From: Ignavibacteriota bacterium
GTDB lineage: Bacteria; Bacteroidota; Ignavibacteria; Ignavibacteriales; Melioribacteraceae
Assembly (NCBI GenBank): GCA_002698995.1
Contig: PAAX01000001.1
Location: 1,422 to 65,421, forward strand
DNA length: 64,000 bases
Direction of reading: 5' to 3'
In this document: positions 55,437-60,479 of the stretch, piece by piece
Position numbering within the stretch: position 1 is the first letter of the stretch
Layout: each line of letters starts with the position of its first letter
The notes under the pieces: generated by a model
What the model saw: only the letters and a program-made list of their open reading frames with translations
Databases searched by the model: none
What the model was told of the DNA's origin: nothing
Position numbers and translations under genes: made by a program

Positions 55437-55768
55437 AAAACCTCGGAGGTTTGCAGTACAATATATAGGGGACGAATCCGCCGCAGCGGATCGTCCCCTA
55501 CAACTGATAATATTGAATAGATATTAAATGTTGTAGGGACAAGTCGCGACTTGTCCCTACTTTATTTACATTAAAAGGCTGTCACGGTTGCACCGTGATA
55601 GAGCAAGTATCAGTTCTCATGTGAAATAAAGATTCCGTCATGGTACGACCATGACGGCAATGGAATGGAAATAATTATCAATATTGTAGAGCCGTTGCAT
55701 GCAACGGCTCTACAGCATCTGAAAACCTCCGAGGTTTAGAAAACCTCGGAGGTTTGCTTGAAGCAAGC
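55437..55768. repeat. Cluster of palindromic modules upstream of the type IIG gene
   Basis: AAACCTCGGAGGTTT at 55438-55452. TAGGGGACGAATCCGC-cgca-GCGGATCGTCCCCTA at 55466-55500. GTAGGGACAAGTCGCGACTTGTCCCTAC at 55533-55560. CTGTCACGGT-tgc-ACCGTGATAG at 55579-55601. CCGTCATGGT-acg-ACCATGACGG at 55635-55657. GTAGAGCCGTTGCATGCAACGGCTCTAC at 55686-55713. AAACCTCnGAGGTTT at 55723-55737 and 55741-55755. Confidence 0.9.
55574..55757 (+). repeat. Left copy of the ~180-bp direct repeat flanking the type IIG/DUF559 cassette
   Basis: Aligns with 60301-60479 at roughly 90% identity by eye (about 14 mismatches plus one 5-nt indel). Confidence 0.85.
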
Positions 55769-55887: not shown

Positions 55888-58800
55888 GTGATTCTTAAAA
55901 AACTTACACCAAAAGCTGCATTAAACAAAGCTTATCAAAAAATAAAACCTCTCCGAAACGAATTTGAAAATTTCAAAACAGAACTCAACATTTTTATTAA
56001 TTCAATTAATGTTGATGAATCGGAAGAATACAATAAAAAGCTTATTGCTAATTTTTTTGAGAAAACATTTTATTCGGAAAATAATGTTAATACTAAGGGG
56101 AGAACCGATTTAGCTATATATCTTGGTAAATCTGCTAAAGATAAAGTTGGGGTTATTACCGAAGTTAAACATCCTAATAATTCAAGCGAAATGGTTAAAC
56201 AGAATAACCTAAATACAAAAGCGATGCATGAGGTTATCCGTTATTATCTTAATGAAAGAATTGATGAAAAAAATGACGAATTAAAATCTATTGTAATTAC
56301 CAACCTTTATGAATGGTTTATTTTTGATGCTCAAACTTTTGAGAGAATTTTCTTTAAGGATACTGAGCTTAAAAAAGATTACTTAAGCTGGAAAAACAAT
56401 AAAAAAGTAAGCAGCAATACAGATCATTTTTATAATGAAATTGCAAAACCTTTTCTGGAAAAATTAAAGACTGAAATTGAGTTTGTGCATTTTAATCTGA
56501 GTGATTATGATTTTAAGGAGGAGAAGAAACTTATACCTCTCTTTAAAATTTTTTCTAAACCGCATTTAATTAAAGAAACATTTGCCAACGACAGCAACAC
56601 ATTAAACAAACCTTTTTATCAAGAACTGCTTCATATAATTGGATTGGAAGAAGTAAAAGAGGGGAGTAAAAAGATTATCCGCCGTAAAGATGAAACGCAG
56701 CGTTATTCCGGTTCCCTTCTCGAAAATACAATCACAATTCTTAAATCAAAAGATTCCGATCTTTACTTTAACGATAAGGAAAAATACGGCACAACAAGGG
56801 ATGAACAGCTTTTTAATATTGCTCTTGAACTAAACATAACATGGATTAACAGAATTCTATTTCTAAAACTGCTTGAGGCTCAATTAGTAAATTATAATAA
56901 AGGGGATAAATCACATAAGTTCTTAGATTCTTCCCTCATTAAAGATTTTGATATTCTGAGAGAATTATTTCATGAAGTATTGGCAGTTAAAGAAGATGAA
57001 AGAAGTAAGGATATTCTTCCTCAGTTTAATAATGTCCCTTATCTAAACAGTTCACTTTTTGATATAAGCACGCTTGAACGAAAAACAATTGATATAAGCG
57101 GATTAAAAGACCGTTACAAAATTCCCTATTACAGCGGAACCGTTCTAAAAGGGAGTGATTCAAAAAGATTAAATGGTGAGATTTCCACTCTTAAATATCT
57201 TCTCGATTTTTTGGATGCTTACGATTTTTCAACCGAAAGTACCGGTGATGATATTCAAGAAGAAAATAAATCACTTATTAATGCTTCTGTTTTAGGAAGA
57301 ATATTCGAAAAAATTAATGGTTACAAAGAAGGCTCTATTTTTACTCCCGGATTTATTACAATGTATATGAGCCGCGAAACTATACGCCGTGCGGTTGTTC
57401 AAAAGTTTAATGATCATTTAAAAACCTCTTACAAAGACTTTAACGATCTTAAAAAAGAAATTGATATTGATGCCGAAGGGAGAAAAAAAGCAAACCATAT
57501 AATAAACTCATTAAAAATATGCGATCCGGCTGTGGGCTCAGGGCATTTTCTGGTTTCTGCTCTTAATGAAATTATTGCGGTAAAATCCGAATTGAAAGTT
57601 TTAAGCTACCGCGATGGAAGCAGAATACAGCAGTATAAGGTTGAGATTGAGAACGATGAGCTTATTGTTACCAACGTTGAAACCGATGAAATTTTTGATT
57701 ATCACCTTAGCGATAAAGGGAATATTATAGACGAACTTCAAAAAGTGCAGGAAGCTCTTTTTCATGAAAAGGAAACCATAATTGAAAACTGCTTATTTGG
57801 TGTTGATATAAATCCTAACTCGGTTAATATATGCAGACTAAGGCTTTGGATTGAGCTTCTTAAAAATGCTTACTATGACCTCACCCCCAGCCCCTCTCCT
57901 AAATTAGGAGAGGGGAGGGTGAGGTCCTTACAGACTTTGCCCAATATTGATATTAATATTAAACAGGGTAATTCTTTAATAAGCAGATTTGCTCTTGATG
58001 TTGATCTTAAAAAGGCTCTTAAAACTTTTAGATATACTATTGATGATTATAAAAATTTTGTTGCGGGTTATCGTAATGCTAAAACTAAAGAGGAGAAGAG
58101 AAACTTTGCCAGGTTTATTGAGGATATTAAAAAGAATTTTAGAACAGAAATTAATGCTAATGATCCCAGACGTAAAAAGCTTAATGATCTAAGCTACGAG
58201 CTCCATACTAAATTTGAATCCGATAGACTTATTGAAGTTGAACTTTCCGAAGCAGATAAAAAGAAAACGGCTAAGGAAAAAGAAAAACTTGTTAAACAAA
58301 TTGATAAGTTATCGGATGAACTTAAATCCGAAGAGACAGGAGAAATTTATAGAAATGCTTTTGAATGGCGTTTCGAATTTCCGGAAGTGCTTGACGATGA
58401 TGGGAATTTTATCGGCTTCGATGTTGTGATTGGAAATCCGCCGTATATAAGATTTCAAGAAATCAATGATATAAATAAAATCCTATCAAACTATTTTCGT
58501 GAGCAATATATGGTTGCAAATAAAGGAAATTATGATATTTATGTTATTTTTATTGAAAAAAGCATGCAACTAATTCGATCAAATGGGTTTGTAGATTTTA
58601 TAGTTCCTAATAAATTCATGAATGCAAATTATGGTGAAAGTTTAAGAAATATGATTACTTCAAGTCAATCACTTTCAAGAATTGTAGATTTTGGAGAGCT
58701 TCAAGTATTTGATGAAGCTACAATTTACACATGTTTACTAAGACTCAGTAAGAATTGTAGAACATTTAATTATCTGAGAATCGCAAGTATTAAAGATTTA

Positions 58801-59730
58801 AGGCATAGTTTACCTCTTAAATATGAAAAAAGAGAGACAATAAAACTTATTAATAAAGAGTGGAATATTAATAAATTAGAATTAGATGCCCTTTTTATTA
58901 AAATGCAAAATGGTACCATTCCACTTAAAGAGATTACTAAAATTTTTGTTGGAATACAGACAAGTGCTGATCCAGTTTATATTGTAAGGTCAAATAAAGG
59001 AAAGTTCTATTCGAAGTCTCTGAATAATTATTGTCAACTAAATAATGAAATTTTAAGACCAGTATTAAAGGGTAGTGATATTAAAAGATTCTTTTTTAAT
59101 GAAACTACTCAATTTGTCATTATGCCTTATATAGTTGAAAATAATGAAGTAAGCTTAATGCAAGAAAAAGATTTTAATAAAAATTATACAGCCACATTCG
59201 AATATTTAGGACAGAATAAGAGTAAACTTCTGAAAAGAGCAGAAGTTGATATCAATTGTTGGTGGCATTATCCATTTCCTAAAAATATTAAAGAGATGTT
59301 TCAACCAAAAATTATTACTGGAGTTTTAGCAAATAAAGCATCTTTTAATTTTGATTCTGATGGAAAATACACTTTTGTTGGTGGCGGTAATGCTGGTGGT
59401 TATGGGTTAATTTTAATAGATACTTCTTTTAGTTACAAATATCTTGTAGGTTTATTGAATTCTCAGCTTATAGATTTATTCATAAAATCTGGTTCAACAA
59501 AGTTTAGAGGCGGGTATTATTCATATGCAAAAAGGTTTATTGAAAACACTCCGATTAAAAAACCAACCCAAAAACAAGAATCCCAAATCACCGGAATAGT
59601 AGAAAAAATAATAGAGAAGAAGAAAGAGAATCCGGAAGCAGATACAAAGGCAGAAGAGAAGGAAATAGATAGATTGGTTTATGAGTTGTATGGGTTAACG
59701 GAGGAGGAGATAAAGATTGTGGAAGGGTGA
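55888..59730 (+). CDS. Type IIG (Eco57I/MmeI-like) bifunctional restriction endonuclease / N6-adenine methyltransferase
   Basis: N-terminal PD-ExK (GRTDLAIY...VITEVKHP). Motif I CDPAVGSGHFLV and motif IV VIGNPPYI. TaqI-C-like specificity region (IFVGIQTSADPVY, LVGLLNSQLIDLF). Typical tail LVYELYGLTEEEIKIVEG. GTG start taken from the ORF track, so the start is uncertain. Confidence 0.88.
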   Translation: MILKKLTPKAALNKAYQKIKPLRNEFENFKTELNIFINSINVDESEEYNKKLIANFFEKTFYSENNVNTKGRTDLAIYLGKSAKDKVGVITEVKHPNNSSEMVKQNNLNTKAMHEVIRYYLNERIDEKNDELKSIVITNLYEWFIFDAQTFERIFFKDTELKKDYLSWKNNKKVSSNTDHFYNEIAKPFLEKLKTEIEFVHFNLSDYDFKEEKKLIPLFKIFSKPHLIKETFANDSNTLNKPFYQELLHIIGLEEVKEGSKKIIRRKDETQRYSGSLLENTITILKSKDSDLYFNDKEKYGTTRDEQLFNIALELNITWINRILFLKLLEAQLVNYNKGDKSHKFLDSSLIKDFDILRELFHEVLAVKEDERSKDILPQFNNVPYLNSSLFDISTLERKTIDISGLKDRYKIPYYSGTVLKGSDSKRLNGEISTLKYLLDFLDAYDFSTESTGDDIQEENKSLINASVLGRIFEKINGYKEGSIFTPGFITMYMSRETIRRAVVQKFNDHLKTSYKDFNDLKKEIDIDAEGRKKANHIINSLKICDPAVGSGHFLVSALNEIIAVKSELKVLSYRDGSRIQQYKVEIENDELIVTNVETDEIFDYHLSDKGNIIDELQKVQEALFHEKETIIENCLFGVDINPNSVNICRLRLWIELLKNAYYDLTPSPSPKLGEGRVRSLQTLPNIDINIKQGNSLISRFALDVDLKKALKTFRYTIDDYKNFVAGYRNAKTKEEKRNFARFIEDIKKNFRTEINANDPRRKKLNDLSYELHTKFESDRLIEVELSEADKKKTAKEKEKLVKQIDKLSDELKSEETGEIYRNAFEWRFEFPEVLDDDGNFIGFDVVIGNPPYIRFQEINDINKILSNYFREQYMVANKGNYDIYVIFIEKSMQLIRSNGFVDFIVPNKFMNANYGESLRNMITSSQSLSRIVDFGELQVFDEATIYTCLLRLSKNCRTFNYLRIASIKDLRHSLPLKYEKRETIKLINKEWNINKLELDALFIKMQNGTIPLKEITKIFVGIQTSADPVYIVRSNKGKFYSKSLNNYCQLNNEILRPVLKGSDIKRFFFNETTQFVIMPYIVENNEVSLMQEKDFNKNYTATFEYLGQNKSKLLKRAEVDINCWWHYPFPKNIKEMFQPKIITGVLANKASFNFDSDGKYTFVGGGNAGGYGLILIDTSFSYKYLVGLLNSQLIDLFIKSGSTKFRGGYYSYAKRFIENTPIKKPTQKQESQITGIVEKIIEKKKENPEADTKAEEKEIDRLVYELYGLTEEEIKIVEG
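57877..57926. mobile_element. 50-nt GC-rich palindromic mini-element inserted in frame in the type IIG gene
   Basis: GACCTCACCC-ccag-CCCCTCTCCTAA-a-TTAGGAGAGGGG-a-GGGTGAGGTC. About 62% G+C by my count. It encodes DLTPSPSPKLGEGRVRS. The same termini occur in the intergenic copy at 59729-59868. Confidence 0.75.
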
Positions 59731-59868
59731 CCTCTCCCTAAATCCCTCTCCTAAAATTAGGAGAGGGACTTTTAAAATTTGGATTGACTTTTGGGAATTT
59801 GATAGATTTTTTTATTGTAATCCATCTCCACCCCTCTCCGTGTAAGGAGAGGGGCCGGGGGTGAGGTC
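59729..59868. mobile_element. ~140-nt MITE-like element with terminal inverted repeats related to the in-gene mini-element
   Basis: Left end GACCTCTCCCTAAATCCCTCTCCTAA. The reverse complement of the right end is GACCTCACCCCCGGCCCCTCTCC. Internal hairpins at 59744-59767 and 59831-59854. Its first two bases are the GA of the type IIG TGA stop codon. Confidence 0.6.
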
Positions 59869-59915: not shown

Positions 59916-60287
59916 ATGTCAAAACATTTCAACAGACCGGAGCAAAAACCGATACGGAGAAAATTACGTAGGGAACAAACCTACACAGAAAAAGTAGTCT
60001 GGATGCAAGTAAGAAACCGCCGTCTTATGGGAATAAAATTCAAAAGACAATACTCAGTAGATCAATACATAATAGATTTTTACGCCCCCGATATAAAAGT
60101 AGCATTAGAAATTGACGGTGACATTCATGAACTTCCGGAAGTAAAAGAAAATGATGAAATAAGACAAAAGCACATAGAACAATTTGGCATTCAGTTCATA
60201 AGATTAACAAACGAAGAAATATTAGGGAATCCGAACAAAGCCTTTACAAAACTTGAAAAGAAATTAAAAGAAATAATAAGTCAGTAG
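59916..60287 (+). CDS. DUF559 (Vsr-like) endonuclease domain protein
   Basis: TEKVVW..VRNRRL.G.KFKRQ...YIIDFY.P....ALEIDGD.H ... D..R...... G...IRL.N.E is the typical DUF559 pattern. Confidence 0.85.
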   Translation: MSKHFNRPEQKPIRRKLRREQTYTEKVVWMQVRNRRLMGIKFKRQYSVDQYIIDFYAPDIKVALEIDGDIHELPEVKENDEIRQKHIEQFGIQFIRLTNEEILGNPNKAFTKLEKKLKEIISQ

Positions 60288-60300
60288 AGAATTACTATTC

Positions 60301-60479
60301 AAAGGCTTTTACGGTGGCACCGAAATAGAGCAAGTATCAGTTCTCAAGTGAAGTAACGATTCCGTCATGGTACGACCATGACGGCAATAGAAATAATTAT
60401 CAATATCGTAGAGCCGTTGCATGCAACGGCTCTATAGCATTTAAAAACCTCCAAGGTTTAGAAAACCTCGGAGGTTTGC
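60301..60479 (+). repeat. Right copy of the ~180-bp direct repeat
   Basis: See 55574-55757. It contains CCGTCATGGT-acg-ACCATGACGG (60362-60384) and GTAGAGCCGTTGCATGCAACGGCTCTAT (60408-60435). Confidence 0.85.

What the first reader, a model, noticed from the sequence alone, without database searches (positions are those of the whole stretch)
57877..57926. GC-rich palindromic mini-element inserted in frame inside the type IIG R-M gene without breaking the ORF
A 50-nt segment (~62% G+C by my count, in a much more AT-rich gene) forms a two-tier hairpin. The outer stem is GACCTCACCC/GGGTGAGGTC and the inner stem is CCCCTCTCCTAA/TTAGGAGAGGGG. It is translated as DLTPSPSPKLGEGRVRS. It sits between LRLWIELLKNAYY and LQTLPNIDINIKQGNSL, in the linker preceding the conserved LPN..NI..GNSL block of Eco57I-like methyltransferases. 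The same termini and inner stem recur in the intergenic element at 59729-59868, so this is a mobile or repeat sequence rather than native coding sequence. It could be a tolerated loop insertion. It could also be an mRNA structure affecting translation, or a recombination or phase-switch point for the R-M enzyme.
Basis: partly seen in the sequence, partly recalled or inferred. Interest (0 to 1): 0.6.

Follow-up and report, generated by a model that had tools for sequence, protein, structure and literature searches.

The report
Selfish hairpin inside a restriction-enzyme gene
A 50-base GC-rich hairpin sits in frame in a floppy loop of a restriction-modification enzyme gene. It is a leftover or satellite copy of a widespread, apparently undescribed selfish element, built of hairpin ends that often carry a small DUF559 nuclease gene, and relatives of this enzyme have been invaded at exactly this spot many times.

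Summary
Window 57877-57926 is a 50-nt, 62% G+C two-tier hairpin (RNA MFE -40 kcal/mol, z = -6). It lies in frame in a 1280-aa type IIG R-M gene and encodes DLTPSPSPKLGEGRVRS.

It is an insertion, not native coding sequence. Most homologues have a 5- or 8-aa linker here (KNATE, TKESNYTE).

It is not a repeat family of this genome. All copies, and the genome's only DUF559 gene, lie within 2.4 kb at this locus.

Its termini and inner stem match the ends of hairpin-flanked DUF559 (Vsr-like nuclease) cassettes. Those cassettes sit in frame in leuS, type ISP R-M genes and others across many phyla.

The linker is a recurrent invasion site:
- Half of the 120 closest homologues carry an insert there.
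- At least 47 protein clusters carry a complete DUF559 cassette there, including a genome of the same order.

The AlphaFold model places the insert in a low-confidence loop between methyltransferase motifs II and III.

A natural specificity-domain swap in a near-identical allele has its breakpoints elsewhere, so the recombination-point idea gets no support. The mRNA-structure idea could not be tested.

This scan has already noted the DUF559-hairpin cassette on other DNA, in at least 60 genomes. I found no published description.

The parts
57877..57926 (+). 50-nt two-tier hairpin module, in frame, encoding residues 664-680 of the R-M enzyme. Outer stem 57877-57886 / 57917-57926 (GACCTCACCC / GGGTGAGGTC). 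Inner stem 57891-57902 / 57904-57915 (CCCCTCTCCTAA / TTAGGAGAGGGG).
   Evidence: Homologues without it. Match to DUF559 cassette ends.
55888..59730 (+). Host gene: 1280-aa type IIG restriction-modification enzyme (DUF7149 + DUF7814 + Eco57I methylase + TaqI_C specificity domain). The ORF is intact. Motif I is DPAVGSGHF and motif IV is NPPY.
   Evidence: Pfam. Translation. AlphaFold model and Foldseek hits to CamA, M.BseCI, M.TaqI, BpuSI and PglX.
59729..59868 (+). Composite sibling element: GACCTCTCCC, hairpin A (CCCTCTCC-TAAAATTA-GGAGAGGG), a 62-nt AT-rich core, hairpin B (CCCCTCTCC-GTGTAA-GGAGAGGGG), then GGGGGTGAGGTC. Its first bases overlap the TGA stop of the R-M gene.
   Evidence: The same architecture sits at the R-M stop codon in L009/L010 and, with another hairpin family, in L225.
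59916..60287 (+). DUF559 (Vsr-like PD-(D/E)XK) nuclease gene, 123 aa, 48 nt downstream of the composite element. It is the only DUF559 gene in the 4.23-Mb genome.
   Evidence: Pfam PF04480 E = 1e-27. jackhmmer over all genome ORFs found one hit. Synteny with the R-M gene is kept in L009-L010, L013, L225 and L226.

Best explanation
The 50-nt segment is a selfish hairpin module, not part of the enzyme's native sequence. It consists of inverted termini GACCTCACCC/GGGTGAGGTC around one CCCCTCTCC-loop-GGAGAGGGG hairpin. This is the terminal module of a hairpin-ended element family that often carries a DUF559 (Vsr-like) nuclease gene.

In the ancestor of this R-M sub-clade, a copy of the composite two-hairpin element was placed in the short linker after the Tyr-Tyr codons. 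That element sits at the R-M stop codon, next to the linked DUF559 gene. The linker lies between methyltransferase motif II (FGVDIN plus helix) and motif III (LPNIDINIK.GNSL).

The copy replaced most of the native 8-codon linker and left no target-site duplication. It later collapsed to one two-tier hairpin in this lineage, by deletion between its two inner hairpins.

It survives for two reasons. Its only open frame is the one in register with the gene. And it is translated into a Pro/Ser/Gly-rich 17-residue loop in a disordered connection on the side of the Rossmann fold away from the active site.

The same linker is hit again and again in this family. It is permissive, and it is flanked by the two most conserved DNA stretches of the gene, which is the logic of a homing site.

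Shown: the insertion, the family relationship to DUF559 cassette ends, recurrence at the site, and the loop location in the model.

Inferred: that DUF559 is the enzyme that moves or copies the hairpins (about 50%). Also inferred: the route was a local copy or gene conversion from the downstream element (about 60%) rather than decay of a full cassette once present at this site (about 30%). Also inferred: the insert is neutral for enzyme activity.
For: 1. Insertion. In 79 metagenomic homologues with DNA, 64 have 5-8-aa linkers with no structure (dG 0 to -5.5) and 15 have 12-31-aa linkers. The nearest empty orthologues read TKESNYSE/TKESNYTE.

2. Variants at the same site in true orthologues. L013 (64% id) has a 90-nt two-hairpin form whose spacer ACTTTTAAAA equals the start of the window's intergenic core. 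L012 (72% id) keeps only the right half.

3. Cassette ends. In L045, L020, L039 and L043 they read GACCTCACCCC-nn-CCCCTCTCC-loop-GGAGAGGGG ... DUF559 ... CCCCTCTCC-loop-GGAGAGGGG-nn-GGGGTGAGGTC. Pfam confirms DUF559 inside LeuRS and type ISP genes.

4. Same site, full cassette. G035, a genome of the same order, has hairpin-DUF559-hairpin exactly between LKNAYY and LQTLPNIDINIK. At least 47 further protein clusters do too. On a tree of 170 homologues the full cassette needs at least 11 changes and empty-versus-insert at least 26.

5. Local link. This genome's only DUF559 gene and all its hairpins lie within 2.4 kb. In L139 the solo linker hairpin is identical to the hairpin flanking a DUF559 cassette 500 nt upstream. 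In L225 the linker insert and the downstream DUF559-linked element share a different hairpin family, GACCACCCCC/GGGGGTGGTC.

6. DUF559 lies within 8 kb of 8 of 120 hairpin loci. Y1/RAYT transposases lie near 0 of 120.

7. The model gives pLDDT below 50 over the insert, between helix 179-194 and the motif III segment.

8. Of 19 distinct long linkers, 15 fold better than shuffles at z < -2.
Against: Most hairpin copies (112 of 120 loci) have no DUF559 gene within 8 kb, so the nuclease link is statistical, not obligatory. No mobility or cleavage has been shown.

The full cassettes found at this linker use other hairpin families (CCCCTCC/GGAGGGG), not the window's family.

No member of the window's own 11-protein clade carries a full cassette in the linker.

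The sub-clade polytomy does not prove a single insertion.

Tolerance is inferred from an intact ORF and a model, not from activity.

No target-site duplication or defined target motif was found, so the insertion chemistry is unknown.
Confidence: 0.72

Rival explanations
1. The element is the solo remnant of a complete hairpin-DUF559-hairpin cassette that once sat in this very linker. Because each flanking hairpin is a palindrome, the two are also direct repeats. Slippage or recombination between them would delete the nuclease ORF and leave left terminus + one hairpin + right terminus, much like a solo LTR.
For: The 50-nt element is exactly terminus + one hairpin + terminus of the cassette ends. 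Full cassettes occupy this linker in G035 and at least 47 clusters. Gains and losses of the cassette are frequent on the tree. Decayed-looking linkers exist, such as P0009 and G031.
Against: None of the 11 proteins of the window's clade has a full cassette here. The 90-nt form in L013 carries the core start of the DUF559-less composite element, not nuclease coding remains. P0010 has an empty linker while a DUF559 cassette sits downstream. The full cassettes seen at this site use other hairpin families.
Confidence: 0.2
2. The hairpin is kept because it does something for the R-M gene at the RNA or DNA level. For example, a -40 kcal/mol structure could pause ribosomes or destabilise the mRNA, damping expression of a toxic enzyme after transfer to a new host.
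For: The structure is very stable. Hairpin-forming inserts of different sequence recur at the same place in many homologues, which could be read as selection for structure.
Against: About half to three quarters of homologues have no insert and no structure there. The inserts belong to known dispersed hairpin families found in unrelated genes and between genes. There is no U-tract, terminator or Rfam match. Full nuclease cassettes at the same site point to invasion rather than regulation. The apparent conservation against L009 only reflects an allele about 99% identical overall.
Confidence: 0.08
3. The in-gene hairpin and the intergenic element, 1.8 kb apart and sharing 23-24 nt in inverted and direct orientation, act as a recombination or phase-variation switch. 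They would invert, delete or exchange the 3' half of the gene, which encodes the catalytic motifs and the specificity domain.
For: A 24-nt match of 96% identity links the two elements. A published survey lists 'Eco57I restriction-modification methylase' and 'DUF559 domain-containing protein' among annotations enriched in predicted programmed inversions (PMC9881135).
Against: The natural recombinant allele (L009-L011) has its breakpoints right after NPPY (about 58450) and about 130 nt before the stop (about 59600), not at the hairpins. Three independent contigs are co-linear with the window. No recombinase gene was found in 46-64 kb. There is no silent partial gene copy downstream to shuffle with.
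Confidence: 0.04
4. It is an ordinary REP/REPIN-type element moved by a Y1 (RAYT/IS200-like) transposase, unrelated to DUF559.
For: The genome has six Y1-like ORFs and many REP-like palindromes of its own around this cassette. L012 has a Y1_Tnp gene just upstream of its R-M gene.
Against: The element lacks the GTAG/CTAC head that the host's own REPs carry. None of the 120 hairpin loci has a Y1 gene within 8 kb, against 8 with DUF559. No Y1 gene is on this contig near the locus.
Confidence: 0.05

Closest known systems
Rickettsia palindromic elements (RPE; Ogata et al. 2000, as summarised in the MITE review PMC10969869)
   Same: Both are short palindromic selfish repeats inserted in frame in protein-coding genes. 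They are translated as extra loops, absent from orthologues, and thought to be compatible with fold and function.
   Different: RPEs are about 100-150 bp, AT-rich like their genomes, confined to Rickettsia, and present in tens of copies per genome. This module is 50 nt and GC-rich in an AT-rich genome. It occurs in many phyla at low copy number (0-23 per genome in this order) and exists only at one locus here. Unlike RPEs, its family forms the ends of cassettes carrying a nuclease gene.
Vsr-like / EDxHD homing endonucleases (I-Bth0305I; PMC2677866, PMC3239194)
   Same: DUF559 shares the Vsr-like PD-(D/E)XK fold class (PMC3424549). The cassettes sit at fixed, conserved sites of conserved genes and come and go on the gene tree, as homing elements do.
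   Different: Known members live in group I introns, inteins or as free-standing genes, so the host product is restored by splicing. Here there is no intron or intein, and the hairpins and the nuclease are read through in frame. Hairpin-only derivatives exist. Cleavage activity of DUF559 is untested.
REP/REPIN elements with RAYT transposases, and MITEs in general (PMC3184786, PMC10969869)
   Same: Both are small hairpin or inverted-repeat modules. They are non-autonomous copies that outnumber the protein-coding partner, and composite two-hairpin forms resemble REPINs and MITEs.
   Different: There is no GTAG head, no Y1 transposase association (0 of 120 loci) and no target-site duplication. 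The elements are frequently intragenic and in frame, and the associated gene is a PD-(D/E)XK nuclease, not a transposase family known to move DNA.
DUF559-hairpin cassettes noted earlier by this scan (e1-1112384, e1-796479, e1-2093932, e1-1436891 and others)
   Same: They share the same kind of nuclease gene and double-hairpin inverted ends, in frame in queA, ileS, leuS, priA, mnmA and an R-M gene. I reached the same cassette independently from this window before reading those notes.
   Different: The item here is the hairpin-only (solo) form, with the nuclease gene 2 kb away. New in this report: the fixed, repeatedly invaded linker of one type IIG family, and the co-variation of the in-gene hairpin with the downstream DUF559-linked element.

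Membership tests
In-frame palindromic selfish repeats (RPE-like / intragenic MITE) | Hairpin-forming palindrome, more stable than chance | tested here: met
   MFE -40 kcal/mol, z = -5.96, 0 of 200 shuffles fold as well.
In-frame palindromic selfish repeats (RPE-like / intragenic MITE) | Absent from orthologues at the same position | tested here: met
   Most homologues have 5- or 8-aa linkers. The nearest empty orthologues are P0010-P0012.
In-frame palindromic selfish repeats (RPE-like / intragenic MITE) | Keeps the reading frame, with no stop codon | tested here: met
   The linker is 51 nt and only the used frame is open. The ORF of 1280 aa is intact.
In-frame palindromic selfish repeats (RPE-like / intragenic MITE) | Multi-copy dispersed family within the same genome | tested here: not met
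   The only copies are the in-gene one and the two hairpins of the intergenic element 1.8 kb away. The family is dispersed across other genomes.
In-frame palindromic selfish repeats (RPE-like / intragenic MITE) | Terminal inverted repeats plus target-site duplication | tested here: inconclusive
   A 10-bp inverted terminus is present. No duplication flanks the in-gene or intergenic copy, and the native linker is largely replaced.
DUF559-hairpin cassette family (provisional class of this scan) | Termini and subterminal hairpin identical in kind to cassette ends | tested here: met
   The ends GACCTCACCCC..CCCCTCTCC-loop-GGAGAGGGG / ..GGGGTGAGGTC occur in L045, L020, L039 and L043.
DUF559-hairpin cassette family (provisional class of this scan) | DUF559 ORF between the two hairpin ends | tested here: not met
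   The in-gene element has no ORF and is a solo form. The DUF559 gene lies 2 kb downstream, next to the sibling composite element.
DUF559-hairpin cassette family (provisional class of this scan) | The same site is occupied by full cassettes in homologous genes | tested here: met
   G035/L006 and at least 47 protein clusters with PF04480 in the linker.
DUF559-hairpin cassette family (provisional class of this scan) | DUF559 nuclease acts on the hairpins or on the empty site | not testable with these tools
   This needs biochemistry or a mobility assay.
REP/REPIN-RAYT | Conserved GTAG/CTAC head and linkage to a Y1 (RAYT) transposase | tested here: not met
   The element has no GTAG head, whereas the host's own REPs do. 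A Y1 gene lies near 0 of 120 hairpin loci.
Intrinsic transcription terminator | GC-rich stem followed by a U-tract | tested here: not met
   No terminator-like site in 57600-58200. The stem is followed by CTTACAGAC.
Programmed inversion / phase-variable R-M switch | Inverted repeats plus recombinase plus alternative orientations in a population | tested here: inconclusive
   A 24-nt inverted match exists. No recombinase is nearby. Three metagenome contigs are co-linear. Read-level data were unavailable.
Type IIG restriction-modification enzyme (host gene) | Single polypeptide with an N-terminal nuclease region, a gamma-class N6-adenine methyltransferase (motif I, NPPY) and a TaqI-like specificity domain | tested here: met
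   Pfam finds DUF7149, DUF7814, Eco57I and TaqI_C. Foldseek matches CamA, M.BseCI, M.TaqI, BpuSI and PglX. Enzyme activity was not tested.
Known structured RNA families (Rfam 15) | Match at gathering score | tested here: not met
   There is only a sub-threshold chance hit to a miRNA hairpin model (24.9 bits against 77).

The most novel reading that the evidence does not exclude
DUF559 nucleases and two-tier GC hairpins together would form a distinct, pan-bacterial class of mobile element. It would need neither intron nor intein, because it enters permissive loops in frame. The motif II-III linker of this type IIG R-M family would be one of its fixed homing sites. Hairpin-only copies such as this one would be non-autonomous satellites, seeded and kept in concert by the DUF559-linked copy next to the gene.
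Probability: 0.45. Interest if true: 0.8.

Novelty: new variant of a known kind. Interest (0 to 1): 0.6.

Why it matters
1. Defence genes themselves are colonised by small selfish elements at a precise, conserved position. This gives a natural experiment on a homing-like life cycle: empty site, full nuclease cassette, hairpin-only form and decayed remnant all occur among relatives.

2. The work ties an orphan protein family (DUF559) to a specific DNA structure, which makes its function testable with simple cleavage and copying assays.

3. It marks a naturally permissive insertion site in type IIG enzymes. The linker tolerates up to about 400 extra residues, which is useful for engineering.

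4. It explains annotation oddities. R-M enzymes end up named 'DUF559 domain-containing protein' or 'very-short-patch-repair endonuclease'. It may also explain why such proteins score as inversion targets in surveys.

If the element is only a tolerated remnant, the local biology is ordinary. The wider pattern is what is of interest.

Tried and rejected
1. Genome-wide copy count. I expected a repeat family and found only this locus, so 'abundant native repeat' is rejected.

2. Rfam at permissive E-value. Nothing real was found.

3. Terminator and promoter scan. No terminator was found.

4. Special sequence conservation of the hairpin against P0003/L009. This looked significant at first (1 difference in 50 nt against 13% mean divergence). 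I rejected it because L009-L011 are about 99% identical to the window outside a swapped specificity block (99.3% over the 5' part). P0003 and P0004 are therefore not independent orthologues.

5. Recombination breakpoints at the hairpins. Rejected by the same comparison.

6. Y1/RAYT association. 0 of 120 loci.

7. PDB sequence search. It aligns only from NPPY onward and says nothing about the linker, so the AlphaFold model and Foldseek were used instead.

8. Single-sequence phmmer for DUF559 near hairpins gave 7 of 120 loci and jackhmmer gave 8 of 120. The link is real but covers a minority of copies.

9. A tree of DUF559 proteins labelled by hairpin family was considered and dropped, because both sets had been selected by the trait being tested.

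11. Literature searches for DUF559 (25 papers, none describing hairpin-flanked or in-frame cassettes) and for Vsr-like homing endonucleases found no prior description.
Full report
**Observation**

Window 57877-57926 reads GACCTCACCC-CCAG-CCCCTCTCCTAA-A-TTAGGAGAGGGG-A-GGGTGAGGTC. The MFE is -40 kcal/mol, z = -5.96, and none of 200 dinucleotide shuffles folds as well.

The element lies in frame in ORF 55888-59730 and is read as D664-S680, DLTPSPSPKLGEGRVRS. The other two frames of the element contain stop codons.

The ORF encodes a 1280-aa type IIG restriction-modification enzyme with DUF7149, DUF7814, Eco57I methylase and TaqI_C domains.

The intergenic element at 59729-59868 has the same right terminus and a near-identical left terminus. 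It holds two inner hairpins of the same kind around an AT-rich core.

**Not a repeat family of this genome**

The assembly is 4.23 Mb in 36 contigs, at 31.9% G+C. Across all of it, the inner-stem and terminus motifs occur only at this locus. One unrelated weak match to the relaxed inner-stem pattern lies on another contig, and so does one stray 10-mer.

The motif is nevertheless common in the group. A stricter pattern was found in 74 of 151 genomes of the same order, at 0-23 copies each. A reversed-pattern control gave zero matches in every genome.

The hits came from Ignavibacteria/Melioribacteraceae, Bacteroidota, Cyanobacteria, Chloroflexota, candidate-phyla-radiation groups, Alphaproteobacteria, Verrucomicrobiota and others.

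**It is an insertion**

The 120 best protein homologues align perfectly on both sides (LRLWIELLKNAYY and LETLPNIDINIK.GNSL). They differ only in between. Sixty have a linker of 8 aa or fewer, mostly KNATE or TKESNYTE. Sixty have longer linkers. The tree needs at least 22 changes of this state.

DNA for 79 metagenomic homologues shows two classes:
- 64 short linkers with no structure (dG 0 to -5.5).
- 15 long linkers with raised G+C.

Of 19 distinct long linkers, 15 fold better than their shuffles at z < -2. They belong to several unrelated hairpin families, for example GTAGAGACG...CGTCTCTAC, CTGCCTAGCCGGCAGGCAGG and CCCCTCCC...GGGAGGGG. All begin right after the Tyr-Tyr codons.

**A caution about the closest homologues**

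P0003 and P0004 (83% protein identity) are not independent orthologues. Their contigs L009-L011 are about 99% identical to the window (99.3% over the 5' part) through the upstream region, the gene, the hairpin, the intergenic element and the DUF559 gene.

The exception is a block at about 58450-59600, which is only about 50% identical. That block starts just after NPPY and covers the specificity domain. It is a natural specificity swap whose breakpoints are not at either hairpin.

**True orthologues show variants at the same site**

- L013 (P0008, 64% id) has a 90-nt form with both termini and two inner hairpins. Its 10-nt spacer, ACTTTTAAAA, equals the start of the window's intergenic core.
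- L012 (P0005, 72% id) keeps only hairpin B plus GGGGGTGAGGTC.
- L225 (P0009) has a decayed insert of another hairpin family.
- P0010-P0012, in the same 11-member clade, have the empty 8-aa linker.

**Link to DUF559**

The ORF at 59916-60287 begins 48 nt after the intergenic element. It is a DUF559 (Vsr-like) protein, Pfam E = 1e-27, and it is the only one in the genome.

Several of the hairpin loci from other genomes show hairpin-DUF559-hairpin units:
- Free-standing in L043.
- In frame in leucyl-tRNA synthetase genes (L020 and L091 at one site, L045 at another).
- In frame in type ISP R-M genes (L039, L109).

These come, and Pfam confirms them.

The cassette ends read GACCTCACCCC-nn-CCCCTCTCC-loop-GGAGAGGGG on the left and the mirror image ending in GGGGTGAGGTC on the right. 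The window's 50-nt element is exactly left terminus + one hairpin + right terminus.

Solo hairpins of the family also sit in frame in an M19 dipeptidase, an altronate/galactarate dehydratase and a methionyl-tRNA synthetase.

DUF559 lies within 8 kb of 8 of 120 hairpin loci. A Y1/RAYT transposase lies near none.

**The linker is a fixed invasion site**

G035 is a genome of the same order. Its orthologous R-M gene (53-56% id) carries a complete hairpin-DUF559-hairpin cassette exactly between LKNAYY and LQTLPNIDINIK.

A search with that region found at least 47 further protein clusters of this R-M family with 150-400-aa linkers holding PF04480 at the same place. Named sources include Cryomorpha, Niabella, Hydrotalea and Ekhidna.

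On a tree of 170 homologues built without the linker:
- The full cassette needs at least 11 changes, 6 of them forced by well-supported branches.
- Empty versus any insert needs at least 26 changes.

A second site, near residue 510, holds DUF559 cassettes in other members. In L139 a cassette at that site and a solo hairpin at the 663 linker share an identical hairpin.

**Local relationship**

R-M-DUF559 synteny is kept through the window's clade: the window, L009-L010, L013, L225 and L226. L226 has an empty linker but a hairpin-flanked DUF559 cassette 1.2 kb downstream.

In L225 the composite element at the R-M stop codon and the linker insert both belong to the GACCACCCCC/CCCCCTCC/GGGGGTGGTC family. 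In the window both belong to the GACCTCACCC/CCCCTCTCC/GGGTGAGGTC family.

The in-gene hairpin therefore co-varies with the DUF559-linked element next to the gene. That points to local copying or gene conversion.

**Structure**

An AlphaFold model of residues 465-1280 was built with 63 homologues (mean pLDDT 80). The insert falls at model residues 200-216, and pLDDT is below 50 over residues 204-213. It lies between the helix that follows motif II (FGVDIN) and the motif III segment.

Foldseek matches the model to CamA, M.BseCI, M.TaqI, BpuSI and PglX. In a Rossmann fold the helix-to-next-strand connections lie opposite the cofactor site; this is established knowledge, not measured here. That fits tolerance of the insert.

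**Mechanism proposed**

A copy of the composite hairpin element beside DUF559 entered the linker in the ancestor of the P0001-P0009 sub-clade. It replaced most of the native linker without a target-site duplication. In this lineage it later collapsed to one two-tier hairpin.

It persists because it is in the one open frame and encodes a flexible loop. Recurrence at this site follows from two things: a permissive loop, and flanks that are the most conserved DNA of the gene, which is homing-site logic.

That DUF559 performs the cutting or copying is inferred, not shown. The alternative route is decay of a full cassette once present at this site. It is the main rival within the same framework.

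**Other rivals**

- A regulatory RNA or DNA structure remains possible but has no positive support. There is no terminator and no Rfam family, and most homologues lack any insert.
- A recombination or phase switch is not supported. The breakpoints lie elsewhere, the contigs are co-linear, and no recombinase was found in 46-64 kb.
- A REP/RAYT origin is not supported.
- Native coding sequence is excluded.

**Comparison with what is known**

The nearest published kind is the Rickettsia palindromic element and other intragenic MITEs (PMC10969869). The nearest protein relatives of the associated nuclease are the Vsr-like/EDxHD homing endonucleases (PMC2677866, PMC3239194; PMC3424549).

I found no paper describing hairpin-flanked, in-frame DUF559 cassettes.

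The scan's own notebook holds at least 60 earlier notes of such cassettes on other DNA. I read these after reaching the same link from this window.

New in this report:
- The hairpin-only form.
- The fixed linker site in one type IIG family, with counts.
- The co-variation with the neighbouring DUF559-linked element.

**Verdict**

The element is a tolerated selfish hairpin of a DUF559-associated family, lying at a recurrent invasion site. I rate it a new variant of a known kind, with interest 0.6.

Noticed in passing
window 58450-59600: A near-identical allele (L009-L011, from three metagenome runs) matches the window at about 99% through the upstream region, gene, hairpins and DUF559. The exception is this block, which is only about 50% identical. 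It starts just after NPPY and ends about 130 nt before the stop. This is a natural swap of the target-recognition domain, that is, a change of specificity.
   Followed up: partly
window 55574-55757 and 60301-60479: The R-M + hairpin element + DUF559 cassette is bracketed by direct repeats of about 180 nt. These are built from the host's own REP-like palindromes (GTAGGGACAAGTCGCGACTTGTCCCTAC, GTAGAGCCGTTGCATGCAACGGCTCTAC, CCGTCATGGTACGACCATGACGG, AAACCTCGGAGGTTT). The host REPs carry GTAG heads, and the genome has six Y1/RAYT-like ORFs elsewhere.
   Followed up: partly
window 59728-59730 and L225 3848-3850: In both the window and a 61%-identical orthologue, the TGA stop of the R-M gene overlaps the first bases (GA) of the composite hairpin element. 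This holds even though the two elements belong to different hairpin families.
   Followed up: partly
L224 (G060:C20:13500-30500): A prophage-like region of about 15 kb contains terminase- and portal-sized ORFs. It holds 14 copies of the hairpin-plus-GGGGGTGAGG motif, all on one strand, between genes at spacings of 0.3-1.7 kb.
   Followed up: partly
P0024, P0049, P0101, L139 (about residue 510 of P0001): A second in-frame DUF559 cassette site exists in the same R-M family, just before methyltransferase motif I. It is flanked by TPLNPLSRG-type or CCCTCTCC-type hairpins.
   Followed up: partly
P0187, P0190, P0196, P0216 and others: DUF559 domains also sit inside type ISP enzymes, type I HsdS and HsdM proteins of Bacteroidota. 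Many are annotated only as 'DUF559 domain-containing protein' or 'very-short-patch-repair endonuclease'.
   Followed up: no
L208 (metagenome homologue): This homologue has an in-frame stop inside the conserved LRLWIELL motif (LRL*IELL), so it is probably a pseudogene or a sequencing error.
   Followed up: no
PMC9881135, table of enriched annotations: 'DUF559 domain-containing protein' (odds ratio 14) and 'Eco57I restriction-modification methylase' (odds ratio 16) are enriched among predicted programmed-inversion targets. The inverted hairpins that flank these cassettes might contribute to that signal.
   Followed up: no
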